DNA from: Escherichia phage vB_EcoM-Ro111lw
Strand: one strand, 5' to 3'
Length of the DNA stretch: 64,000 nt
Sequence record: MH571750.1
Every line of letters begins with the position of its first letter. Position 1 is the stretch's first letter. The notes beneath the pieces were generated by a model. That model made no database searches. It was not told the origin of the DNA and saw only the letters and a program-made list of their open reading frames with translations. A program made the position numbers and the translations under genes. This document shows, piece by piece, positions 45,181 to 62,674 of the stretch.

Positions 45181-45451
45181 AGAAAAGTGGGAGATTTTAC
45201 CATTAGTCAGTGAAGGTGGTAATGGTTGTGAAATGTACATGATACGTGGTCATGTTCCAGAACCAATTGCACTTGAGATGGTAAACAACTTTACAGATGG
45301 CTCTTACAAAGACTTAGGAGAGCCAACTATAAAGCATCAATGGGTAAAACCTGTACCAGACAGCACAGGTAACTGTAGTGTACTTTACCACGTTGTAGAC
45401 CCTGTAAAATGCAAATCTGCAATGGCAGTAACAAACGTAACTTTTGATTGA
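45173..45451 (+). CDS. Hypothetical protein
   Basis: 92 aa, overlapping start. Confidence 0.45.
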   Translation: MAKEKWEILPLVSEGGNGCEMYMIRGHVPEPIALEMVNNFTDGSYKDLGEPTIKHQWVKPVPDSTGNCSVLYHVVDPVKCKSAMAVTNVTFD

Positions 45452-45462
45452 GAGACAAAACT

Positions 45463-46344
45463 ATGAAAACATCTATCCGTGTTACAGTTCATTCACCAAC
45501 TAAAGGGACTCATGAAGAAGAGTTTAACATCGTCCAATTCCCTTCTGGTGAGATTGGTGGACACTTTTCGCCAGAGTTTGTTGATTTTACTGCTTATGCA
45601 GCATCATCTATCAACAATGTGATTATGATTGTAAAAGGTTATGATAAGGACACATTGTTTGCTGTGGCACTTGCTAAAGAAGCAATTGATGATTTAGTAC
45701 CTCATAAGTTTGCTATGAAGACTGCTATCTTTTACTATTTGCCAAATGCACGTTACGACCGTCACATGTTTAAAGGTGATGCAGCAGCTTTGAAAGTGTT
45801 TGCACAACAGGTTAATGCAATGGGTTTTGATGCAGTCTGTGCAGTTGACCCTCACAGCTATGTACCAGATAACCTGTTTAACTGCTTCCAGAGTATTCCT
45901 CAAAAGGAAATTGCAGTCCACTATGCAAATGACCCACTGATTGATTACTTAGTAGCCCCAGATGCAGGTGCTGCTAAGAAGATTGCAGAGACTGCTAAAG
46001 AGGTGGATAAACCATACATCACAATGTCTAAAGTGCGTAACCTTAAGACTGGTGAAATTACTGGTATGCGAATCCTTGATGATGTTGATTTGACAGATAA
46101 AACCGTCATGATTCTGGATGATATCTGTGATGGTGGTCGAACCTTCATAGAAGCAGCGAAACATCTTCGTGAAGCAGGTGCAAAACGTGTGGAACTTTAT
46201 GTAACACATGGTATCTTCTCTAAAGATGTTGAAAACCTTCTTGACAATGGTATCGACCATATTTACACTACAAACTCTTTAGGCGAAGCTAAAGACCGTG
46301 GCTTAACACATTACAGTCAAGTTACTGTAGCAAACCTTGATTGA
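45463..46344 (+). CDS. Ribose-phosphate pyrophosphokinase family protein (PRPP synthetase-like; could be an ADP-ribose pyrophosphate synthetase-type homolog)
   Basis: PRPP-binding loop VMILDDICDGGRTF; about 290 aa; start moved from TTG to ATG (MKTSIRV) with GAGAGAC RBS. Confidence 0.7.
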   Translation: MKTSIRVTVHSPTKGTHEEEFNIVQFPSGEIGGHFSPEFVDFTAYAASSINNVIMIVKGYDKDTLFAVALAKEAIDDLVPHKFAMKTAIFYYLPNARYDRHMFKGDAAALKVFAQQVNAMGFDAVCAVDPHSYVPDNLFNCFQSIPQKEIAVHYANDPLIDYLVAPDAGAAKKIAETAKEVDKPYITMSKVRNLKTGEITGMRILDDVDLTDKTVMILDDICDGGRTFIEAAKHLREAGAKRVELYVTHGIFSKDVENLLDNGIDHIYTTNSLGEAKDRGLTHYSQVTVANLD

Positions 46345-46389: not shown

Positions 46390-48171
46390 ATGACTAAATC
46401 ACTTTATGCAGTACCAGCAGGTTTAAACGCAGATGCTTACAAATCTGGTCATGTTTACCAGTACCCTAGTGCAACAGAGTACTTGATGTTCAACCTGACA
46501 CCACGTAGTGACAAATGGTTTAACAGCCCCTTAGCAATTGATGGTGTAGTAGCTTTTGGTATTCAACGTTTCGTTAAAGATTACTTGATAGACCACTGGA
46601 ACGCCACTTTCTTTGAACGTGATAAAAAAGAAGCCATTGATGAAATCTTAGAAGTCATGAATGGTGTTCTGGGTAAAGATGCTATCGGTCGAGAGCATTG
46701 GGAAGCACTTCACGACTTAGGTTATCTACCAGTTGAAGTATACGCTGTAGAAGAAGGTACAGTTGTCCCTATGCGTGTCCCAATGATTGTCTTCCAGAAC
46801 ACTGTTTCAGGTTTCCATTGGGTAGCGGGGTATCTGGAAGATGCTTTCTCTGCTGAGATTTGGAAGGCTTGTACCATTGCAACTATTGCATTGCATTATA
46901 AACGCATCTGTAAGAAGTGGGCTGACCTTACTTGCGACAACGACTTACATTTATCTTATCAGTGCCATGACTTTGCTATGCGTGGTATGTCCGGCTTTAC
47001 TGATGACGCATTTAACGCTGTAGGCCACTTAACCAGCTTTAAAGGAACTGATAGCTTCCCTGCTGTGTATACGGCTAAACGAATCTATGGACAGTCTTAC
47101 CCAATCTCTGATATTGGTAGTTCTGTACCAGCCACTGAACACTCTGTGATGTGTGCAAACATTGCTTGGGAAGGTGGTAATGAGTTGATTGAAGAAGAAA
47201 GACGCTTTAAGGGTGAGTTACAAACCTTCCGTCGTTTCTTAACAGAAACTTACCCAACTGGTATTGCAAGTGTTGTTTCAGACACTTATAACTTCTGGAG
47301 AACTGTGTCAGAAATTTTACCAGCACTTCGTAAAGAAATTATGGAACGTGATGGCAAACTGGTAATTCGTCCTGACTCTGGAGACCCTGTACATATTGTC
47401 ACAGGTTATAAAGCAATCCACTTAGAATGTGCTAAGAAGGCTTATTACGAGCACCTAAGCAAGCTGGAAGCCAGTGACACAATGTTGAATGCTGTTCTGA
47501 ACATGAAGCTTGAAAACATCAACTATGGTATTGCTGGATGGCTACTGTCAGAAGGCTACGAAATGGTTGTTGACAGAGAAGACTTTGAAGTTGCTGATAC
47601 AGTGATGTTGAAGAACGCTTATATGGTTGGTTCTGCAAACGTTGTAACACGCCCTGTAGCAGAGATTGATGGAGCTATTAAGACCTTGTATAACATCTTT
47701 GGAGGAACTATTAACTCTAAAGGTTTTAAGGTACTGGATGAGCACATTGGCCTTATCTATGGCGACTCTATCACGTTGGAACGTGCAAACGAAATCCTGA
47801 AGCGTCTGTATGAAATGGGGTTTGCAAGCTCTAACGTGGTGTTTGGTGTAGGCTCTTACACTTACCAGTACATGACTCGTGACACCTTTGCATTTGCTGT
47901 CAAAGCAACTCTTGCAAGCATTGGTGGCAAAGAGATTATGCTTGCAAAAGACCCTAAAACAGATAGTGGTGTTAAGAAATCTGCCTTTGGTGGTGTAGCA
48001 CCTATGTGGGATGGTGAGAATTTGAAAGCTGTAGATGGCTATGGATTCCAGAGCTTTGCAGATGCACTTGAACATCCAGCTTGTGCTTTACGTTTAGTCT
48101 TTAGCGACTCTGAGCAGTACGGTTACACAACTCTTGGTGATATTCGAAATAATATTGACAAGCAGCTTTAA
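46390..48171 (+). CDS. Nicotinamide phosphoribosyltransferase family protein (NadV/NAMPT-like)
   Basis: 593 aa; adjacent to the PRS-like gene; N-terminal region and size consistent with NAMPT family; family assignment moderately confident, substrate not determinable. Confidence 0.55.
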   Translation: MTKSLYAVPAGLNADAYKSGHVYQYPSATEYLMFNLTPRSDKWFNSPLAIDGVVAFGIQRFVKDYLIDHWNATFFERDKKEAIDEILEVMNGVLGKDAIGREHWEALHDLGYLPVEVYAVEEGTVVPMRVPMIVFQNTVSGFHWVAGYLEDAFSAEIWKACTIATIALHYKRICKKWADLTCDNDLHLSYQCHDFAMRGMSGFTDDAFNAVGHLTSFKGTDSFPAVYTAKRIYGQSYPISDIGSSVPATEHSVMCANIAWEGGNELIEEERRFKGELQTFRRFLTETYPTGIASVVSDTYNFWRTVSEILPALRKEIMERDGKLVIRPDSGDPVHIVTGYKAIHLECAKKAYYEHLSKLEASDTMLNAVLNMKLENINYGIAGWLLSEGYEMVVDREDFEVADTVMLKNAYMVGSANVVTRPVAEIDGAIKTLYNIFGGTINSKGFKVLDEHIGLIYGDSITLERANEILKRLYEMGFASSNVVFGVGSYTYQYMTRDTFAFAVKATLASIGGKEIMLAKDPKTDSGVKKSAFGGVAPMWDGENLKAVDGYGFQSFADALEHPACALRLVFSDSEQYGYTTLGDIRNNIDKQL

Positions 48172-54152: not shown

Positions 54153-54500
54153 ATGACATTTAAAGAGTTCTGTCAAGCTACTTTCATAGTTGTTTTCTTA
54201 GTTGGGGCAGGTGTCTGGGGAGGATACTCTTACAGAGACTACCAAGTTGCTGAAACTGAGCTAAACAATGAGAAGCTGATAAGTGTTGCTAAAGATGCTT
54301 ATCAGGAAGGATTAGCTACACTGAGCACCAATTACAAAAATGATTTGAAAGATGTGCTTGCTAAGAATAAGCACACAAAAGAGGTACTAACGTATGAAAA
54401 AACTAAGCCAGAGTTTTATAATGTTTGTGTTACTGATAATTATGTCAGGGTGTTCAACGAACAAAGTGAACAGTACATTCAAAAACTCCCAAGTAAGTGA
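54153..54500 (+). CDS. i-spanin-like protein (N-terminal TM anchor + periplasmic domain)
   Basis: N-terminal TM (FIVVFLVGAGVWGGY) then charged helical region; an out-of-frame lipoprotein ORF overlaps its 3' end. Confidence 0.4.
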   Translation: MTFKEFCQATFIVVFLVGAGVWGGYSYRDYQVAETELNNEKLISVAKDAYQEGLATLSTNYKNDLKDVLAKNKHTKEVLTYEKTKPEFYNVCVTDNYVRVFNEQSEQYIQKLPSK

Positions 54501-54663
54501 GGGTGACAAGTACACTCAAGAAGAATCACGGTATATCATCAAAGGTAACACAGGCAGTGATGTAGCAGCAGCACTTGAGTTCTACCGTGACGGCTTTTAC
54601 CAGTGTACAATTAAAGCTAATAACCTTATTGACATGATTTTATTAGGAAATAAACAGCAATGA
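54394..54663 (+). CDS. o-spanin-like outer-membrane lipoprotein (overlapped with upstream gene)
   Basis: Signal peptide with lipobox-like IMSGC; own RBS AAGAGG 8 nt upstream; starts inside 54153..54500 in a different frame. Confidence 0.4.
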   Translation: MKKLSQSFIMFVLLIIMSGCSTNKVNSTFKNSQVSEGDKYTQEESRYIIKGNTGSDVAAALEFYRDGFYQCTIKANNLIDMILLGNKQQ

Positions 54664-55556: not shown

Positions 55557-55764
55557 AAAGACCCGTAAAATTGTAAGTTCAGCAGTATTCATAGGGAGAG
55601 ATGAAGTCATCCCGTTTGCAGGAGAAGATGTGTTAACTTACAAGAAGGTGATGAAACGTGAGTTCAGTAACCGTTTCCGTGACTTCTTCTCTGAACCATT
55701 AGAAGACTTTAAAAGCCGTCGTGGTAAAGGTATCATCATTCAAGAGGCAATTATTCATGGCTGA
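55531..55764 (+). CDS. Hypothetical protein
   Basis: 77 aa. Confidence 0.4.
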   Translation: MKVILARDKKTRKIVSSAVFIGRDEVIPFAGEDVLTYKKVMKREFSNRFRDFFSEPLEDFKSRRGKGIIIQEAIIHG

Positions 55765-55957
55765 CTTCTGCAAAGACTGTTCTATCGAAATGTTTGGACG
55801 TGATACAGGTGACTTAAAAGGTCTCATCACTGAAGATGATTTTAAAGCTGGCTACGCAATGCCAGTAATCTGTGAAGGCTGTGGGTGCATCTGGGTAGAC
55901 CACGAAGGACAGCGTGTAAAACCTTCAGAAGATAAAGAATCTTGGGAGAGATGTTAA
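55757..55957 (+). CDS. Small zinc-ribbon protein (start moved to ATG)
   Basis: CKDC...CEGCGC; track start is GTG. Confidence 0.4.
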   Translation: MADFCKDCSIEMFGRDTGDLKGLITEDDFKAGYAMPVICEGCGCIWVDHEGQRVKPSEDKESWERC

Positions 55958-56743
55958 ATGGGTATTGTAAAAATCATCAATGGTGATATCTTTGCTGCAT
56001 TTGATAAAGGTAAGTTTGACGTCATCGGTCACGGTTGCAACTGTATGAACTTAATGGGTGCAGGTATCGCTGACAAGATTTCTAAACTTTACCCAAAAGC
56101 ATATGAGACTGATACAGAAGTTTATCTGTATGCAGGTGGAATAGGCCACAAGCCCTGTGAGAATTTACTAGGCAATTTCTCTGTAGCACGTTTAAAACAA
56201 GGCCGTATAGCTAACCTTTACACTCAGCTTAAGACTGGTAAAGATGCCCGATACAGTGCTTTAGAGTCATCTTTGAAACAGCTTAACAGATACTGTGAAG
56301 TCAATCAGTTGAAGAAAGTCGGGTTACCTATGATTGGTGCAGGTATCGGTGGGCTAGACCCTCAAGCCGTCACAGTTATCATTAATCAGGTGATGAAGAG
56401 TGTAGATGTTTATCTGTATGTCTACGAAGGAGAGATGTACCACAAGTTACGCTCAGGTTGGAAGAACTACTGTGAGCCAGAATACTTTGCAGGTGTAGTA
56501 ACGTTCACAGATGATGCAGTTACCCTCTTCAGACGAAGAAAAGGTAAGATACATCAAAGTAACCCTCCGGTTGAGAAGATGTCTCTAAGTAACGCTCTAG
56601 TTACCCACCTGTCGAAGGGCAATCACAGGATAGCCGTAACATTTGGCAGTGATGCAGATACATATATCTATGCAAGAACTGATGAGGATATCGAGACGGT
56701 CTTCTCTTCATCGGAAGTTACCTTCTTAGACGCAAAGAACTAA
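55958..56743 (+). CDS. Macro-domain (ADP-ribose-binding/processing) protein with about 100-aa C-terminal extension
   Basis: N-terminus VKIINGDIF...DVIGHGCNCMNLMGAGIADKI parallels the macro-domain pattern (GDIT...D.IVNAAN...GGGV..AI); RBS GGGAGAG. Confidence 0.5.
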   Translation: MGIVKIINGDIFAAFDKGKFDVIGHGCNCMNLMGAGIADKISKLYPKAYETDTEVYLYAGGIGHKPCENLLGNFSVARLKQGRIANLYTQLKTGKDARYSALESSLKQLNRYCEVNQLKKVGLPMIGAGIGGLDPQAVTVIINQVMKSVDVYLYVYEGEMYHKLRSGWKNYCEPEYFAGVVTFTDDAVTLFRRRKGKIHQSNPPVEKMSLSNALVTHLSKGNHRIAVTFGSDADTYIYARTDEDIETVFSSSEVTFLDAKN

Positions 56744-56827
56744 GAAACTCTGTATAATATTCACAATATACTAAGCCTTTCTTATCTGGTAAATTTTTCA
56801 GGTAAGGAGGGCTTTTTTATTTCAGGA

Positions 56828-57010
56828 TTGTGCAGGTAGAGTTCTGGACAGAAATCTGTAGAGAAAATTTTGAACTCCAAAGAGAAAATTCATTTTCAAA
56901 CTGTGCAGGTAATCTCCAAAGAGCTTTTTCATTTTCAAAACGTGCAGACCCCGCTCAGGTCGGGCAAGAAAAATCATTTTAGAATTGTGCAGGTAGGTGG
57001 ATGCAGGTGG
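56828..57010 (+). repeat. Tandem degenerate repeats (about 40-45 bp unit) with core CATTTTCAAA-N-TGTGCAGGTA in a 520-bp non-coding gap
   Basis: TGTGCAGGTA-like cores at about 56830, 56902, 56941, 56987 and 57001; AAAGAG...TTCATTTTCAAA precedes three of them. Confidence 0.6.
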
Positions 57011-57171
57011 GGATGTCGCCATTTCTCACAAGGCTAACACATCTGGAAATAAAAGTCAACAGAAAAATTTGTAGCGGATTGAAAAATAATTCTTGATTGT
57101 AGTTCTGTTTTGTGGTAGTCGCGTGCGCCCGTTTCATTACAATTTTTGCAAAAATATTTTTAAAATTCCTA

Positions 57172-57263
57172 TTGACTCTTTGAGTATGGTTATCTAATAT
57201 TTGCATCAACGGGGAGGGAATGACCTTCCCCACTAAGTAAAGTCCTAAACTGGAGATTCTAAA
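57172..57263 (+). promoter_or_regulatory. Type-A cassette 1: TTGACT-N17-TAATAT promoter plus conserved hairpin leader and RBS
   Basis: Leader TCAACGGGGAGGGAATGACCTTCCCCACTAAGTAAAGTCCTAAACTGGAGATTCTAAA immediately before ATG 57264; GGGAA-tgacc-TTCCC hairpin. Confidence 0.6.
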
Positions 57264-57644
57264 ATGGCATACCGTGCACCTAAATTCATCAACAAAGACA
57301 ACTTCCGCAACGCACTGGAGAAGTCACTTGATGAAAAATTTAACGGCAAATTGATTGTTGTTCACGCATTCAATTTTAAGTATGATATTAACGGGAATAA
57401 AATCAACCATTACACGGCAACCATGTTAGATGGTACGCTATCAAGTGAAAAAGCCGTACTGAATGCACTTGCAGGACGTGGTAAAAACCTGATAAGCTGC
57501 AATAAGAGACGTTATCAAGGTGGCGCATATGGTTATGATGATGCTGTTTACCATCTTGAAAATATGGGCTATTCAGTGGAGAAAGCTGGAGCGTCTCAAA
57601 TAATTGGTAGTGATGGTTATGTGACAATCTTCAAAATTAAATAA
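57264..57644 (+). CDS. Hypothetical small protein (cassette-associated)
   Basis: 126 aa, ATG after conserved leader. Confidence 0.55.
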   Translation: MAYRAPKFINKDNFRNALEKSLDEKFNGKLIVVHAFNFKYDINGNKINHYTATMLDGTLSSEKAVLNALAGRGKNLISCNKRRYQGGAYGYDDAVYHLENMGYSVEKAGASQIIGSDGYVTIFKIK

Positions 57645-57650
57645 AAGTAC

Positions 57651-57730
57651 TTTACAAGGGGCTTATAGTTCGATAAAGTAAGCCCCAGATAAAGAGCTTT
57701 ATCACTCAATCCTAAATTGGAGATTCAAAA
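57651..57730 (+). promoter_or_regulatory. Type-B cassette 1: TTTACA + GGGGCTTA...TAAGCCCC hairpin (with embedded -10-like TAAAGT) + conserved leader
   Basis: 8-bp GC-rich stem; followed by AGATAAAGAGCTTTATCACTCAATCCTAAATTGGAGATTCAAAA then ATG 57731. Confidence 0.55.
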
Positions 57731-57988
57731 ATGGCTATTATCAAAAACGTTGTAGTTCCTGCAAAAACTCGTGATGACGCTCGCATCATGGCGAAAAAGT
57801 TAGGCGGGAAAGTGGTTGACAACGGAAAACAATCTGCTGTAAGATGGAGCGTGAAGGCTGATAAGCAACTAACCTTAAAACGCAGTTCAAACAATCTTTT
57901 TAAAGGTGTAAAATCACTCGGTAAAGTGAACGTGTTTACCAAAAAAGGCTATAAAATGCACTTATCATTAACTGGCAATTTAATCTGA
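57731..57988 (+). CDS. Hypothetical small basic protein (cassette-associated)
   Basis: 85 aa. Confidence 0.5.
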   Translation: MAIIKNVVVPAKTRDDARIMAKKLGGKVVDNGKQSAVRWSVKADKQLTLKRSSNNLFKGVKSLGKVNVFTKKGYKMHLSLTGNLI

Positions 57989-57996
57989 TAAAGTAC

Positions 57997-58078
57997 TTTA
58001 CAGGGGGCTTAAAAGCTGATATCTTAAGCCCCAGATAAAGAGCTTTACCACTCAATCCTTAAACTAGGAGATTCAAAA
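57997..58078 (+). promoter_or_regulatory. Type-B cassette 2 (TTTACA + GGGGCTTAA...TTAAGCCCC hairpin + leader)
   Basis: 9-bp stem, -10-like TATCTT in 3' arm, conserved leader to ATG 58079. Confidence 0.55.
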
Positions 58079-58591
58079 ATGAAAACTGTAGAAGCTACCT
58101 TTGAAGTTGTAAAAGAAAAATTTTCCATCATTTACGAAGCTGTTAATTGCTTTGAAGCAAGCCATAACCTTGATAATTGGGAGTTTACAGATGACCATCA
58201 AGGCGGCGTGACTATTAAAAACCCCAACTGTCAGCGTAATGATTTTAAATATGCAATCCCTTTACATTACAGCCTTAAACAGCTTTCAAGTGACTATGCA
58301 AAACAAGGCCGGGAAAATCCATCAAAAGAGGCTTACATAAGCTTACAGAAAGAACTAGAAAGAGATTTAGAGGCTTCAGAATACAACCTTGCCGCGAAAG
58401 TTGTCGATGCAAATGGTCAAACAATTTTAGATAGTTTTTATATTGGTTACGCTTTCGATTGGTGCTATAGTGACGGCGATGATTTAGAGGATAGACTAAA
58501 AGAAGAGGTGAGCAATTCAGACGCAGAATCTGAAGTATTAGAACGCTTGGAAGCATTAAAAGATTCAGTGATGAATATCTTTAAGAACTAA
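58079..58591 (+). CDS. Hypothetical protein (cassette-associated)
   Basis: 170 aa. Confidence 0.55.
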   Translation: MKTVEATFEVVKEKFSIIYEAVNCFEASHNLDNWEFTDDHQGGVTIKNPNCQRNDFKYAIPLHYSLKQLSSDYAKQGRENPSKEAYISLQKELERDLEASEYNLAAKVVDANGQTILDSFYIGYAFDWCYSDGDDLEDRLKEEVSNSDAESEVLERLEALKDSVMNIFKN

Positions 58592-58600
58592 ATAGATTTC

Positions 58601-58678
58601 TTTACACGGGGCTATCAAGCTGATAAGATAGCCCCAGATAAAGAGATTTATCAACTATCCTAAACTGGAGATTCAAAA
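58601..58678 (+). promoter_or_regulatory. Type-B cassette 3 (TTTACA + GGGGCTATC...GATAGCCCC hairpin + leader)
   Basis: Different stem sequence from cassettes 1 and 2 but base pairing kept (compensatory changes). Confidence 0.55.
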
Positions 58679-58975
58679 ATGAAATTATCAAATAAAGTCC
58701 GTGAAAATCTAAGCAAGTTACTCAACAAAATTGATTTTATCGAGACATCAAGGAATAGTCATGATGTTATGGAATGGTTACACGGAAAAATCAAAGGCCG
58801 TCGTGTAGTGATTTGCTTATGGAATAGTTGCAGGGAATATAAAAAACCTGTATTACAAGTCAATATCTATGATGATACTTTTAAAAGCCCTGTAAAGTCT
58901 AAAAGTGATTTATTAGAATCCTATGAGATAACTGTAAATGGCAAAGTATCAAGTAAAGAGGAAACACCATGTTAA
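58679..58975 (+). CDS. Hypothetical small protein (cassette-associated)
   Basis: 98 aa. Confidence 0.5.
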   Translation: MKLSNKVRENLSKLLNKIDFIETSRNSHDVMEWLHGKIKGRRVVICLWNSCREYKKPVLQVNIYDDTFKSPVKSKSDLLESYEITVNGKVSSKEETPC

Positions 58976-59301
58976 TGACTGGTATCACTGCAATCATTGC
59001 CATTTTCGCGCTATATAAGGCATATAAAGCCTATAATCTAGCAAATAAGGCAATCACACAGCAGGTTAGCAATAGCCTTGTAGAAAGCTTTCTAGGGCGT
59101 CTCAGTGATGAGCAAATAAAGCGGTTAGAAATGAGCTTCAGATTCAAAGCGAAAACCTATCAGATAAGTGACATCTTCAAGGATGATTTCCAGTTAGTCG
59201 ATGATTATAATTCTCTGATAAATGCTTTAAATATCAGTGACTTAAAAGACTACTACGCTGTAATTGTTCAAGAGTTGAGCAAACGAAAACAAAACTGTTG
59301 A
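58969..59301 (+). CDS. Hypothetical membrane-anchored protein
   Basis: N-terminal hydrophobic helix (MLMTGITAIIAIFALY); RBS AAGAGGAAA. Confidence 0.5.
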   Translation: MLMTGITAIIAIFALYKAYKAYNLANKAITQQVSNSLVESFLGRLSDEQIKRLEMSFRFKAKTYQISDIFKDDFQLVDDYNSLINALNISDLKDYYAVIVQELSKRKQNC

Positions 59302-59390
59302 CACTGATTTTTAGATAGATTAAATTACACATCAACGGGGAGGGAACAACCTTCCCACTAAATAAAGTCCTTAAACTAGGAGATTCTAAA
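59298..59390 (+). promoter_or_regulatory. Type-A cassette 2: TTGACA-N17-TAAATT promoter plus conserved hairpin leader
   Basis: Consensus -35; leader ACACATCAACGGGGAGGGAACAACCTTCCCACTAAATAAAGTCCTTAAACTAGGAGATTCTAAA before ATG 59391. Confidence 0.65.
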
Positions 59391-59663
59391 ATGTATACTA
59401 CTAACAATGGCCTCACTTTGAACGTCACACTACGTCACTATGTAGATGGTGTCATGCACTTTGAAGATTTACAAGCTGAACAACATATCTTAGATTGGCA
59501 AGTCGCAGGACTCCAAAAAACTGCTACGGGATACGGTAAAAAGATTCCAACTAGTTGGAAAGTTCACTATGAAGGACGTTTGCGCAGAATTTATCAAGAT
59601 GTGCAAAGCAATAGCGCATCGAGTTACATTATAGTAAAAGGTGAAAAACTGCATTTAGTATAA
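59391..59663 (+). CDS. Hypothetical small protein (cassette-associated)
   Basis: 90 aa. Confidence 0.5.
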   Translation: MYTTNNGLTLNVTLRHYVDGVMHFEDLQAEQHILDWQVAGLQKTATGYGKKIPTSWKVHYEGRLRRIYQDVQSNSASSYIIVKGEKLHLV

Positions 59664-59668
59664 AGTAC

Positions 59669-59748
59669 TTTACATGGGGTTTAAAAGTTGGTATCTTAAG
59701 CCCCAGATAAAGAGCTTTACCCCTAAATCCTAAATTGGAGATTCAAAA
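59669..59748 (+). promoter_or_regulatory. Type-B cassette 4 (TTTACA + GGGGTTTAA...TTAAGCCCC hairpin + leader)
   Basis: Stem retains pairing through a G-U wobble; conserved leader to ATG 59749. Confidence 0.55.
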
Positions 59749-60153
59749 ATGGCTATTAATAATCGTGAGTTATCAATCTTAAAAGCACGTTTAACCGTTA
59801 ATCGAATCAATGTTATCACGTCATCAGCACCAGACGAGACATTACACAACATTATCGGGAAGATTCAAGGTGTTATCTTAGACGTTGAGAATGTAAAAAA
59901 CTCATTAGCAGACGTTGCAGCAGGTGTTACACTAGACGGCGCACAATATGAAATGATTGACATGTTAGGCAAATCAAAGGTTATGAATAAAGAGTTAGAC
60001 TTAAAAATGTTTCGATTTGCCGTGAAAGTATGGCTATCTGTCGAGTATGATGCTAATTTTGCAATTGCTGATTTCTTTGCCACTTGGTTGCAACGTAACT
60101 TAACAAATCATGATTTTCGTGATATCTGTGATGCAATTTACGCAGAACTTTAA
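59749..60153 (+). CDS. Hypothetical protein (cassette-associated)
   Basis: 134 aa. Confidence 0.55.
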   Translation: MAINNRELSILKARLTVNRINVITSSAPDETLHNIIGKIQGVILDVENVKNSLADVAAGVTLDGAQYEMIDMLGKSKVMNKELDLKMFRFAVKVWLSVEYDANFAIADFFATWLQRNLTNHDFRDICDAIYAEL

Positions 60154-60161
60154 AAATTTTA

Positions 60162-60253
60162 TTGACACTGATTTTTAGATAGACTAAATTACACATCAAC
60201 GGGGAGGGAACAACCTTCCCACTAAATAAAGTCCTTAAACTAGGAGATTCAAA
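60162..60253 (+). promoter_or_regulatory. Type-A cassette 3: TTGACA-N17-TAAATT promoter plus conserved leader
   Basis: Almost identical over about 90 bp to cassette at 59298. Confidence 0.65.
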
Positions 60254-60796
60254 ATGAAATGCTTTCACGGTACTACTCAAGAAAACTTTATCAACCTGAT
60301 TAATAACGGTGATAAACCATCAGGTGTATGGAATTGTTCGGATATGGACGGCAATTTTTACGTGTACCCAGAAAATAAACTCTATGGTGATGATGAGGAA
60401 GAGATAGCATCGGAAGGTATCCAGCAAGCTCTAGGAAATGCCACTATCACGGCAGCTTTTCAGATGAAAACTCAAAATATTGTTATCTTAGAACTTGACA
60501 TTCCAGAGGATGAGCTAAATGATGATTATTCTTGTGATAACATGTCAAATATAGCAAGCTTTACAGAGTACTTTGATGTAAATTGGATTAAAAAGGTCTA
60601 TACAACAGAGTTCAACGCTATGTATTCACCTTTTTGTCTCCCTTCACTGGATAACCCAAATTTGAATTATCTTGATGAAACATTGGAGCTACTTGCTAAA
60701 AGTATCCAACAATCCGACAGTATTCAGGTTTTTTGTGACATCATGGATACACTGACAGAAAACATTGTAGAGAGTGATTTAAAGGTCTTTTTCTAA
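60254..60796 (+). CDS. Hypothetical acidic protein (cassette-associated)
   Basis: 180 aa. Confidence 0.55.
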   Translation: MKCFHGTTQENFINLINNGDKPSGVWNCSDMDGNFYVYPENKLYGDDEEEIASEGIQQALGNATITAAFQMKTQNIVILELDIPEDELNDDYSCDNMSNIASFTEYFDVNWIKKVYTTEFNAMYSPFCLPSLDNPNLNYLDETLELLAKSIQQSDSIQVFCDIMDTLTENIVESDLKVFF

Positions 60797-60862: not shown

Positions 60863-61096
60863 ATGCTTACAACCATTTATCTCATCCTTTCTATCTGTAA
60901 CGGTCATTCATGTGACTTTAAAGGGCTTGAAGAGTTTACAGGAAGTAAAGAAAATGCTATTCAGGTTTGCCAGATAGCAAGACAAGACTATCCCGCCAGT
61001 GACGACATTCAATGCTACTTTAAGACAGAAGATGAAGACGGCATCTATTTTGACAGCGTTGACGGTCAATATGAAATTATCATTGAAAAAGACTAG
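60863..61096 (+). CDS. Hypothetical small protein
   Basis: 77 aa; RBS AGAGGG; preceded by CCCCT-tac-AGGGG hairpin. Confidence 0.45.
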   Translation: MLTTIYLILSICNGHSCDFKGLEEFTGSKENAIQVCQIARQDYPASDDIQCYFKTEDEDGIYFDSVDGQYEIIIEKD

Positions 61097-61187
61097 ACAA
61101 GCCTGATAAAAGTCTGTAAATTACACATCAACGGGGAGGGAATGACCTTCCCCACTAAATAAAGTCCTTAAACTAGGAGATTCAAAA
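61094..61187 (+). promoter_or_regulatory. Type-A cassette 4: TAGACA-N17-TAAATT promoter plus conserved leader
   Basis: Leader identical to cassette 1 hairpin version (GGGAATGACCTTCCCC). Confidence 0.6.
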
Positions 61188-61658: not shown

Positions 61659-61750
61659 TTGCAAAGGCAAATCAAAACAAGTAAATTACTAATCAACGGG
61701 AAGGGATTAACCTTCCCACTAAGTAAAGTCCTTAAACTAGGAGATTCAAA
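61659..61750 (+). promoter_or_regulatory. Type-A cassette 5: TTGCAA-N17-TAAATT promoter plus leader (hairpin variant GGGA-ttaacct-TCCC)
   Basis: Conserved TAAATTACTAATCAACGGG...ACTAAGTAAAGTCCTTAAACTAGGAGATTCAAA before ATG 61751. Confidence 0.6.
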
Positions 61751-62281
61751 ATGAACAAGTTTCAAGCTATCAACTATATTCGCTCATCCAACGTTATGAC
61801 TAAGCCCGTTAAAGATACCTTCGAATTTCGTTGCAACGGTGTACACTTTGCAACTATCACTAAATCAGAAAACGGGGCTTATTATATACATCGTCGTAAT
61901 GCCTCTACTGTTGTAGTCTCTCACTTTATGCAAGCTGTAGCAGAACTGTTACCGCTATTCTTAGGTATTTACTTAGATGAGTGCAAAAACGTTCGCAACC
62001 ACGTTAAAGACCTTTTAAATGGTTATAAAATGGCTTATGAACGTTCTATCAAGAATCTTAACAAGTTCTATAAAGCCCCTGAAAATACTGTTTCAATGGC
62101 TTACAGTGTAAGCGGTGAGTTGGTTAGCCTCTTTGAAGTGGAAGAAATCGCGTTGCATGACTTACGCCCTAGCGGTTACTCTAAGACACTAGAGGAAGGT
62201 TTAACGTTCAATATCAAGAACTTAGAAAAAACTTTAAAAGATATTGAAAAAGATATTGACGAGACAATCAAAAATCTGTAA
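61751..62281 (+). CDS. Hypothetical protein (cassette-associated)
   Basis: 176 aa. Confidence 0.55.
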   Translation: MNKFQAINYIRSSNVMTKPVKDTFEFRCNGVHFATITKSENGAYYIHRRNASTVVVSHFMQAVAELLPLFLGIYLDECKNVRNHVKDLLNGYKMAYERSIKNLNKFYKAPENTVSMAYSVSGELVSLFEVEEIALHDLRPSGYSKTLEEGLTFNIKNLEKTLKDIEKDIDETIKNL

Positions 62282-62343
62282 ATTGTCAATCAACGGGGGA
62301 TAACCTCCCCCACTAAACAAAATCCTAAACTGGAGTTATCAAG
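62256..62343 (+). promoter_or_regulatory. Type-A cassette 6: TTGACG-N17-TAAATT promoter (overlapping upstream stop) plus leader with compensated hairpin GGGGGA-taacc-TCCCCC
   Basis: Stem sequence differs from other copies but pairing is kept. Confidence 0.6.
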
Positions 62344-62607
62344 ATGGAAAACGTAGAATTAACCACACTTTTACAAATTGCAACCGACAAAGAAGATGTA
62401 GCATTATTCCACCGTATCGAAAGCGATTTGTTCAATGGTGAAATCATTAAAGAATCTTACGAAGTTGTCGGATTCAAAGATGGTAAAGCATTTGGCTTTT
62501 TTGACCTCGACAAAAGCAAAGCGGTTACAATGTACGATGTTCTATCTTGTGAAATTCTGACAAAATACAACGAAAAAAGGCTTGCAACCTACGCCAATAT
62601 GCAGTAA
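62344..62607 (+). CDS. Hypothetical small protein (cassette-associated)
   Basis: 87 aa. Confidence 0.5.
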   Translation: MENVELTTLLQIATDKEDVALFHRIESDLFNGEIIKESYEVVGFKDGKAFGFFDLDKSKAVTMYDVLSCEILTKYNEKRLATYANMQ

Positions 62608-62674
62608 ATTACTAATCAACGGGGAGGGAATGACCTTCCCACTAAACAAAGTCCTAAACTGGAGAATCTAAATT
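62582..62674 (+). promoter_or_regulatory. Type-A cassette 7: TTGCAA-N17-TAAATT promoter plus conserved leader
   Basis: -10 overlaps upstream stop codon; leader with GGGAATGACCTTCCC hairpin before ATG 62675. Confidence 0.6.

What the first reader, a model, noticed from the sequence alone, without database searches (positions are those of the whole stretch)
55958..56743. Macro-domain protein with an uncharacterised C-terminal extension
The N-terminal 150 aa fit the macro-domain pattern (GDI..., D.I.H..N, MGAGIA). Macro domains bind or hydrolyse ADP-ribose derivatives, so a phage copy could reverse ADP-ribosylation of phage DNA or proteins (DarT-type toxins), degrade ADPR-derived immune signals, or feed ADP-ribose to the NAD module 8 kb upstream. 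The C-terminal 100 aa have no recognisable motif.
Basis: partly seen in the sequence, partly recalled or inferred. Interest (0 to 1): 0.5.

Follow-up and report, generated by a model that had tools for sequence, protein, structure and literature searches.

The report
Phage macro-domain enzyme with orphan tail
This Felix O1-like phage gene encodes an ADP-ribose-removing (macro) domain related to the phage T4 protein that defeats the bacterial DarTG2 DNA-poisoning defence, fused to a 100-residue domain found nowhere else; the enzyme half is a known kind, the extra domain is new but of unknown role.

Summary
Window 55958-56743 (+) is a real 261-aa gene under purifying selection. It is the ortholog of wV8 gp12 and BASEL phage Bas63_0095 (97% identity), in a Felixounavirus.

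The catalytic Asn of DarG and PhiKZ AdfM is kept (N28). The DarG/TARG1 Lys is Gln (Q90), as in T4 Tk.4 and all of its phage clade that I checked.

Residues about 157-261 form a confidently predicted helix plus six-strand domain. It has no Pfam hit, no PDB or BFVD fold match and no homolog outside this fusion among 1.84 billion proteins. It is constrained (dN/dS 0.19) but diverges about 2.5 times faster than the macro half. It has no invariant polar residue and no conserved charge.

Most likely function: an AdfM-type remover of ADP-ribose from phage DNA, with a lineage-specific accessory domain. This is inferred and untested. It is not obligately linked to the upstream "PRS/NAMPT" pair, which is in fact NARP1 (Adps/Namat). 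I rate it a new variant of a known kind, of moderate interest.

The parts
55958..56743 (+). Complete gene for the 261-aa two-domain macro protein (ortholog of wV8 gp12 and Bas63_0095)
   Evidence: ORF. It is 96-97% nucleotide-identical in 200+ Felixounavirus records and 97% amino-acid identical to bas63_0095. PHROG 335 matches at E=6e-113.
55958..56428 (+). Macro domain (aa 1-157) of the T4 Tk.4/AdfM type. Signature motifs are HGCNC (N28), MGAGIA, NLYTQ (Q90) and IGAGIGGLD.
56426..56740 (+). Orphan C-terminal domain (aa ~157-261): linker helix 158-167, six beta-strands (179-238) and helix 242-250. Only P174, G179 and Y236 are (nearly) invariant.
   Evidence: AF2 secondary structure, with pLDDT 75-88 in the full-length model and the same topology when folded alone. 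No Pfam hit, no PDB fold match and no BFVD match outside the family. A profile search of 1.84 billion proteins finds it only fused to this macro domain. dN/dS is 0.185.
56773..56814 (+). Terminator-like hairpin followed by a T-run, 30 nt after the stop codon; probable end of the transcription unit
   Evidence: Consensus scan: 17-pair stem followed by TTTTATTT. The scan found 2 terminator-like sites against 2.5 expected, so position rather than statistics supports it.
55757..55957 (+). Small 66-aa four-Cys (CxxC...CxxC) ORF that ends on the base before the macro start codon; a possible co-translated partner. Membership is tentative.
   Evidence: ORF and sequence. It lies adjacent to the two-domain macro gene in all 29 two-domain IMG/VR loci L006-L034 and in L001 (72-100% identity). 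A different four-Cys ORF occupies the same position in the distant relative L004, but not in L005 or the Erwinia-phage loci. PHROG 2210, function unknown.

Best explanation
The gene encodes an AdfM-type counter-defence enzyme. Its N-terminal macro domain binds ADP-ribose attached to a nucleobase of single-stranded phage DNA, most likely thymidine modified by host DarT2. It hydrolyses the glycosidic link, releases free ADP-ribose and lets replication proceed.

The C-terminal beta-rich domain is not catalytic, because it has no invariant polar residue. It most likely acts as an accessory module that docks the enzyme onto a partner, such as the toxin, the replisome or ssDNA, or stabilises or oligomerises it.

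Shown here: the fold, the family relationship, retention of the binding loops and of the catalytic Asn, purifying selection on both halves, and restriction of the C-terminal domain to Felix O1-like phages.

Inferred: the substrate (by homology to T4 AdfM and DarG) and any role of the C-terminal domain.
For: - The macro domain is 34% identical to T4 Tk.4 over its whole length, E=3e-24, and shares HGCNC, NLYTQ and IGAGIG.
- T4 tk.4 (adfM) was the single hit in a transposon screen on DarTG2, and a clean knockout became DarTG2-sensitive (preprint 10.1101/2025.11.20.689424).
- DarG is the only PADLOC hit (E=3.2e-13) and the only NCBIfam hit (E=1.6e-12). Both are stronger than the hits for T4 Tk.4 itself.
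- N28 aligns with PhiKZ AdfM N23. Mutating N23 reduces removal of ADP-ribose from DarT2-modified DNA (PMC13309987).
- Both Gly-rich loops are invariant across 17 family members that are as little as 40% identical in the macro half.
- The gene lies in a same-strand block with known or presumed host-interaction genes (NARP1, rIIA/rIIB, PNK), and this order is kept in distant relatives.
- Both domains are under purifying selection.
Against: - No experiment exists on any Felix O1-like ortholog; a literature search for Bas63 with DarTG found nothing.
- The Lys that is catalytic in DarG (Taq K80) and TARG1 (K84) is Gln90 here, and TARG1 D125 is Gly131. The chemistry therefore cannot be DarG's exactly.
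- The same Gln is present in T4 AdfM, whose enzymology has not been shown. The preprint only says enzymatic removal 'seems likely'.
- Macro domains of this clade also hydrolyse small-molecule and protein-linked ADP-ribose, and sequence alone cannot fix the substrate (PMC9503650).
- The C-terminal domain has no analog in T4 AdfM, and nothing here reveals what it binds. Its charge is not conserved (pI 4.6-9.5), which argues against a conserved nucleic-acid-binding or DNA-mimic surface.
Confidence: 0.5

Rival explanations
1. The protein hydrolyses small-molecule ADP-ribose derivatives. Candidates are O-acetyl-ADPR, ADPR-1''-phosphate, and TIR-derived immune signals such as His-ADPR or gcADPR. It would destroy the signal and release free ADP-ribose that the phage's NARP1 (Adps/Namat) pathway turns back into NAD+.
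For: - Public records call the family 'phosphatase', 'O-acetyl-ADP-ribose deacetylase' or 'Poa1p-like'.
- A comparative-genomics survey argues that phage macro domains mainly target soluble ADPR derivatives (PMC9503650).
- NARP1, which consumes ADPR, lies about 8-10 kb upstream.
Against: - The closest experimentally characterised homolog (T4 AdfM) has a DarTG2 phenotype.
- One Felixounavirus keeps the macro gene without NARP1, and T4-likes lack NARP1, so there is no obligate coupling.
- NADase effectors already supply far more ADPR than a signal hydrolase could (inference).
- The TARG1 catalytic dyad is absent.
- No KptA/Tpt1 or sirtuin that would generate Appr1p or OAADPR is annotated in a 96.8%-identical phage.
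Confidence: 0.2
2. The protein reverses ADP-ribosylation of RNA or protein. The modification could be made by host toxin ARTs (for example CmdT-like mRNA ARTs) or by an unrecognised phage ART, with the C-terminal domain selecting the macromolecular target.
For: TARG1-like macro domains remove ADP-ribose from proteins and from nucleic-acid ends (established knowledge; reviews listed). The added domain could be a target-recognition module. PNK, an RNA/DNA end-healing enzyme, is syntenic about 2.3 kb upstream in all relatives.
Against: No ART is annotated in the close relative E9, although many ORFs there are hypothetical. There is no direct evidence. The family hits DarG models rather than protein-directed MacroD-type models.
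Confidence: 0.15
3. The protein is a non-catalytic binder (reader or sponge) of ADP-ribose or an ADPR-containing signal. Lys-to-Gln would have disabled hydrolysis, and the C-terminal domain would mediate oligomerisation.
For: Gln90 replaces the catalytic Lys of DarG/TARG1, and Gly131 replaces TARG1 Asp125. Phage sponges for ADPR-derived signals are known as a strategy (Tad1/Tad2 are cited in the reference list seen).
Against: The Asn needed for activity in PhiKZ AdfM is invariant. The Gln is conserved across the whole Tk.4-type clade (all 61 of 72 unique ORFs that match the motif have Q), which suggests a functional residue rather than decay. An enzyme suffices to explain the T4 phenotype.
Confidence: 0.1

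Closest known systems
T4 Tk.4 = AdfM (anti-DarT factor, macrodomain; preprint 10.1101/2025.11.20.689424)
   Same: The same phage macro clade. The two are 34% identical over the full macro domain, E=3e-24, and share the HGCNC, N-L-Y-T-Q and IGAGIG motifs, including Gln at the DarG Lys position.
   Different: T4 Tk.4 is a single-domain 155-aa protein. This protein carries an extra ~105-aa folded C-terminal domain. The function of the Felix-type protein is untested.
DarG antitoxin of DarTG2 (M. tuberculosis / Thermus aquaticus; PDB 5m3i, 5m31; NCBIfam NF048014)
   Different: The score is 47 bits against the 250-bit equivalog cut-off, and only model positions 12-153 of 338 match. The C-terminal domains are unrelated. 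Lys is replaced by Gln. There is no adjacent darT.
PhiKZ gp104 AdfM (chimallivirus DarG2-like macro; PMC13309987)
   Same: A phage-encoded orphan macro domain, shown biochemically to remove DarT2 ADP-ribose from DNA. Its N23 aligns with N28 here.
   Different: Identity is only 23%. PhiKZ AdfM is a true DarG-type sequence (E=9e-25 to Mtb DarG; PADLOC DarG 4e-39) that retains the Lys, and it is single-domain.
Human TARG1/OARD1 (C6orf130) and yeast Poa1p
   Different: The TARG1 catalytic K84/D125 correspond to Q90/G131 here. Those proteins have no C-terminal domain.

Membership tests
Macro domain superfamily (Pfam PF01661) | Profile match above the curated threshold | tested here: met
   32.3 bits against a gathering score of 22, E=1.1e-7, residues 25-141
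Macro domain superfamily (Pfam PF01661) | Three-layer alpha/beta/alpha macro fold | tested here: met
Macro domain superfamily (Pfam PF01661) | Conserved Gly-rich ADP-ribose phosphate-binding loops | tested here: met
   M33-G34-A35-G36 and G127-A128-G129-I130-x-G132 are invariant in 17 family members and align with the same loops of DarG and TARG1
Macro domain superfamily (Pfam PF01661) | Binds ADP-ribose | not testable with these tools
   Needs ITC, a thermal-shift assay or a co-crystal structure
T4 Tk.4/AdfM-type phage macro proteins | Significant full-domain similarity to T4 Tk.4 and the clade signature HGCNC plus N-x-[YF]-[TS]-Q | tested here: met
   34% identity, E=3e-24. HGCNC occurs in 70 of 72 and the ...TQ/SQ motif in 61 of 72 unique related phage ORFs, including this one.
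T4 Tk.4/AdfM-type phage macro proteins | Single-domain architecture of about 150 aa | tested here: not met
   This protein is 261 aa with a folded C-terminal domain. T4-like and most other relatives are 145-186 aa.
T4 Tk.4/AdfM-type phage macro proteins | Protects the phage against DarTG2 | not testable with these tools
   Needs a deletion or complementation plaque assay. No published data were found for Felix O1-like phages.
DarG antitoxin (NCBIfam NF048014 equivalog; PADLOC DarG) | Whole-protein score above the equivalog cut-off | tested here: not met
   47.4 bits against a cut-off of 250; only model positions 12-153 of 338 are matched. PADLOC matches positions 14-146 of 329.
DarG antitoxin (NCBIfam NF048014 equivalog; PADLOC DarG) | Catalytic Asn in the first loop (PhiKZ AdfM N23 equivalent) | tested here: met
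   N28 aligns with N of TVNC/TVNT (DarG) and TVNV (PhiKZ). It is invariant in the family.
DarG antitoxin (NCBIfam NF048014 equivalog; PADLOC DarG) | Catalytic Lys in the FPTK motif (Taq DarG K80; that this residue is catalytic is from my knowledge of Jankevicius et al. 2016) | tested here: not met
   Gln90 (NLYTQ) occupies that column, whereas DarG, PhiKZ AdfM and TARG1 have Lys
DarG antitoxin (NCBIfam NF048014 equivalog; PADLOC DarG) | C-terminal DarT-binding domain and an adjacent darT gene | tested here: not met
   The C-terminal domain is not matched by the DarG models or by any PDB fold. The neighbouring genes are small phage ORFs of unknown function.
TARG1/OARD1 | Lys84/Asp125 catalytic dyad | tested here: not met
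   The HMMER alignment places Q90 opposite K84 and G131 opposite D125
Poa1p-like ADP-ribose-1''-phosphate phosphatase (source of the 'phosphatase' annotation) | Specific similarity to Poa1p, plus a pathway context (KptA/Tpt1, 2H) that generates Appr1p | tested here: inconclusive

The most novel reading that the evidence does not exclude
The orphan C-terminal domain may be a second, non-enzymatic neutralisation module. For example, it could bind DarT2 (or another host ADP-ribosyltransferase) directly. The phage protein would then have convergently rebuilt the two-pronged logic of the DarG antitoxin (erase the mark and block the writer) using an unrelated, fast-evolving fold. The alternative C-terminal domains seen in Erwinia-type relatives and the 41%-identical allele found in otherwise ~94%-identical genomes would then reflect matching to different toxin variants.
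Probability: 0.12. Interest if true: 0.65.

Novelty: new variant of a known kind. Interest (0 to 1): 0.4.

Why it matters
Macro domains are the commonest ADP-ribose-processing domains in phages, yet very few have an assigned target. Linking the Felix O1-like protein to the newly defined T4 AdfM clade gives a concrete, cheap test, because Bas63 is a tractable BASEL phage and bas63_0095 is 97% identical to this protein.

The test would extend anti-DarTG2 counter-defence to a phage group that is widely used for Salmonella and E. coli O157 biocontrol.

The orphan C-terminal domain is a clean case of a lineage-specific add-on to a conserved anti-defence enzyme. If it proves to be a toxin-binding or targeting module, it would show how phages tune a generic eraser enzyme to particular hosts.

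The clade-wide Lys-to-Gln change also raises a mechanistic question: how do these macro domains cleave a base-ADP-ribose bond without the DarG lysine?

Tried and rejected
1. A word-indexed search of 5.8 billion proteins with the C-terminal 105 aa alone gave no hits.

2. A profile search of 1.84 billion representatives returned, beyond family members and fragments, only very long repetitive proteins: retrotransposon arrays, YDG/MBG adhesins and PQQ beta-propellers. These matched in many short stretches. I reject them as score accumulation on repeats, not homology. The 114-aa and 54-aa hits are truncated family members, not stand-alone domains.

4. BFVD gave only the domain's own family. The afdb50 library was unavailable.

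5. I tested whether the 100-aa C-terminus of the Erwinia-phage orthologs is the same domain. hhalign gave a probability of 0.1%, so it is unrelated or beyond detection.

6. A conserved nucleic-acid-binding or DNA-mimic role for the C-terminal domain is not supported, because net charge ranges from -5 to +4 and pI from 4.6 to 9.5 across the family.

7. Positive selection on the C-terminal domain is not supported at the whole-domain level (omega 0.185). Site-level tests were not run.

8. The 41%-identical allele in L033/L034 looked like an arms-race signal. However, the whole early region is mosaic, with repeated intergenic modules, so I do not count it as evidence.

9. An obligate link to Adps/Namat is rejected.

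10. There is no paralog of the C-terminal domain elsewhere in the window, no Rfam family in the window and no tRNA.

11. One literature search on 'AdfM' alone was wasted on unrelated acronyms.

Full report
**1. What is there**

Window 55958..56743 (+) is an ATG-started ORF of 261 codons. Its start codon directly follows the stop of the preceding small ORF. A terminator-like hairpin with a T-run follows 30 nt downstream, at 56773-56814.

The window comes from a Felix O1-like myovirus:
- The gene is 96-97% nucleotide-identical to genes in more than 200 Felixounavirus records, for example wV8 gene 12.
- It is 97% amino-acid identical to bas63_0095 of BASEL phage JohannRWettstein.
- Public records name it 'phosphatase', 'macro domain protein', 'O-acetyl-ADP-ribose deacetylase' or 'hypothetical protein'.

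Nineteen distinct 261-codon alleles give dN/dS of 0.069 for codons 1-156 and 0.185 for codons 157-261. Both halves therefore encode selected protein.

**2. The N-terminal half is a macro domain of the TARG1/DarG/Poa1p-like class**

- Pfam Macro passes its threshold, and PHROG 335 matches end to end.
- The AlphaFold2 model built on 17 family sequences has pLDDT 86 and pTM 0.84.
- A family profile finds TARG1 (4e-11) and the two DarG macrodomains (6e-9, 3e-7) in the PDB by sequence.
- Against PADLOC and NCBIfam the only hit is DarG (E=3e-13 and 1.6e-12). Only the macro half of those models is matched, and the score is far below the equivalog cut-off.

**3. The closest characterised relative**

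tblastn shows the domain in about 2,800 phage records, including the tk.4 gene of T4-like phages.

Direct comparison with T4 Tk.4 gives 34% identity over the whole domain, E=3e-24. A 2025 preprint found tk.4 as the single gene needed by T4 on a DarTG2 host. It confirmed this with a clean knockout and renamed the gene adfM.

A different, truly DarG-like macro protein, PhiKZ gp104, is also called AdfM. It removes DarT2 ADP-ribose from DNA in vitro, and its N23A mutant is impaired.

An eight-sequence alignment, together with the pairwise alignments, shows three things:
- N28 of this protein sits in the column of PhiKZ N23 and the DarG Asn.
- Both Gly-rich loops are conserved.
- The Lys of DarG (FPTK), PhiKZ AdfM and TARG1 (K84) is Gln90 here, and TARG1 D125 is Gly131.

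The Gln is not a local defect. T4 Tk.4 has it, and the motifs HGCNC and N-x-[YF]-[TS]-Q occur in 70 and 61 of 72 unique related phage ORFs respectively. The protein therefore belongs to the T4-type AdfM clade. That clade must use chemistry somewhat different from DarG.

**4. The C-terminal half is a real, orphan domain**

The full-length model predicts the following elements, mostly at pLDDT 75-88:
- a helix at residues 158-167;
- six beta-strands between residues 179 and 238;
- a helix at residues 242-250.

Folding the domain alone gives the same topology at pLDDT 75.

It has no detectable relatives outside this fusion:
- No Pfam hit for any of 15 members beyond single chance-level matches.
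- Only its own family in BFVD.
- No hit in the word-indexed 5.8-billion-protein search.
- In a full HMM search of 1.84 billion representatives, only macro-fused family members, two truncated fragments and repetitive giants that I regard as artefacts.
- No paralog in the window.

Across the family only P174, G179 and Y236 are (nearly) invariant in this half, so it is unlikely to be an enzyme. Its net charge is not conserved, with pI from 4.6 to 9.5. That argues against a conserved DNA-binding or DNA-mimic surface.

It diverges much faster than the macro half. In relatives whose macro half is 40-53% identical to the query, the C-terminal half is 13-19% identical.

**5. Distribution and context**

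tblastn with the C-terminal half finds it only in Felixounavirus, Mooglevirus-type and Suspvirus-type phages (242 records).

More distant metagenomic relatives of ~250 aa keep a recognisable version of it. They sit in the same order rIIA, rIIB..., PNK..., macro.

Other relatives differ at the C-terminus:
- Erwinia-phage orthologs in the same syntenic position are 260 aa, but their C-terminus shows no detectable relation to this one.
- Other syntenic relatives (L039, L041) are 148-156 aa with no extension.
- Further lineages carry short, unrelated tails.

The macro core is thus conserved, while what follows it is lineage-specific.

Two IMG/VR Felixounavirus contigs (L033, L034) are ~94% nucleotide-identical in the flanks but carry an allele only 41% identical in protein. 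The breakpoints lie near 56100, inside the gene, and near 56929. The whole downstream early region is mosaic and studded with repeated promoter/hairpin/RBS modules, so I do not read this allele as specific evidence for an arms race.

**6. Relation to the 'NAD module'**

The upstream pair (45448-46344 and 46390-48171) is annotated PRS/NAMPT. The second protein is 98% identical to bas63_0080. Bas63 supplied the Adps and Namat query sequences of the NARP1 pathway, which rebuilds NAD+ from ADP-ribose and nicotinamide.

Free ADP-ribose released by a macro hydrolase is therefore chemically a NARP1 substrate. The genes are nevertheless separable:
- Felixounavirus contig L010 has the macro gene, rIIA/B and PNK but no Adps/Namat.
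- T4-like phages have the macro without the pair.

No ADP-ribosyltransferase, KptA/Tpt1, NADAR or RNA ligase is annotated in the 96.8%-identical phage E9, although most small ORFs there are 'hypothetical'.

**7. Interpretation**

The best-supported function is an AdfM-type eraser of DarT2-type ADP-ribose on phage ssDNA, with confidence about 0.5. This rests on homology to the one characterised clade member, the exclusive DarG-model hits, the retained Asn and binding loops, and the early/anti-defence gene neighbourhood.

The rivals are:
- hydrolysis of soluble ADPR derivatives or immune signals, possibly feeding NARP1 (0.2);
- reversal of RNA or protein ADP-ribosylation (0.15);
- a non-catalytic binder (0.1).

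The role of the C-terminal domain is open. The evidence favours a non-catalytic accessory module for partner docking, targeting or stabilisation. The pTM of 0.84 for the two-domain model suggests a fixed packing against the macro domain, but I could not inspect the coordinates or the PAE.

**8. Novelty and score**

The macro domain itself is known and annotated, and its probable role follows from very recent work on T4. What is new is the recognition that Felix O1-like phages carry a two-domain version. Its second domain is a folded, selected, lineage-restricted orphan with no homolog or fold match, and it echoes the macro-plus-second-domain plan of DarG without being related to it.

I rate this a new variant of a known kind. 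Interest is 0.4: it is directly testable in Bas63 but not, on present evidence, very surprising.

Noticed in passing
window 45448-46344 and 46390-48171 (+): The 'PRS/NAMPT' pair is the NARP1 NAD+-reconstitution pathway (Adps plus Namat), not a classical PRPP synthetase/NAMPT pair. The second protein is 98% identical to bas63_0080, and Bas63 supplied the Adps/Namat queries in the Osterman et al. preprint. NCBIfam still names them ribose-phosphate diphosphokinase and nicotinate phosphoribosyltransferase. One related contig (L010) lacks the pair altogether.
   Followed up: partly
window 57204-57249, 59298-59390, 60162-60254, 61094-61186, 61659-61751, 62284-62329, 62582-62674; also 57644-57740, 57990-58086, 59662-59758: There are two families of 46-97-nt repeated intergenic modules in front of successive small genes. 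Each has a TTGACA-like box, a conserved GC-rich hairpin (GGGGAGGGAA...TTCCCC or GGGGCTTA...TAAGCCCC) and a common AGGAGATTC-AAAA-ATG ribosome site. They look like reiterated early promoter/leader cassettes and coincide with mosaic breakpoints between related phages. No Rfam family matches them.
   Followed up: partly
window 56744-57263 (intergenic, after the macro gene): This 520-bp spacer has no convincing ORF. It contains three exact copies of TGTGCAGGTA at 56829, 56902 and 56986 (spacing 73 and 84 nt), and these are the only exact copies in the 64-kb window. Repeated AGAGAAAATT / TTTTCAAA elements lie nearby. It could be a protein-binding array or a regulatory region. Related records annotate small hypothetical ORFs there on either strand.
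   Followed up: partly
window 55757-55957 (+): A 66-aa protein with two CxxC pairs (a zinc-ribbon-like pattern) whose ORF ends on the base before the macro start codon. It is adjacent to the two-domain macro gene in all 29 two-domain IMG/VR loci (L006-L034) and in L001. A different four-Cys mini-ORF occupies the same position in the distant relative L004. It is a possible functional partner, but this was not tested.
   Followed up: partly
L033 and L034 (IMG/VR Felixounavirus contigs), equivalent to window ~56100-56929: These contigs are ~94% nucleotide-identical to the window in the flanks. They carry a macro allele only 41% identical in protein (53% in the N-terminal half, 19% in the C-terminal half), with one breakpoint inside the gene. 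Two very different alleles therefore circulate in one genus.
   Followed up: partly
window 54153-54500 and 54394-54663 (+): An i-spanin (Rz-like, PHROG 1152) and an overlapping ORF with a lipobox-like MSGC signal (annotated o-spanin in Bas63) sit among early-type small genes in the same strand block as the macro gene. They are far from the endolysin annotated elsewhere in related genomes.
   Followed up: no
phage vB_EcoM_E9 record 57881-59378 (outside or upstream of the finding; homologous region not mapped in the window): The close relative also annotates a 165-aa 'NAD synthetase' and a MazG-like pyrophosphatase next to each other. These are further nucleotide/NAD-metabolism genes that may belong to the phage's NAD-related toolkit.
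   Followed up: no
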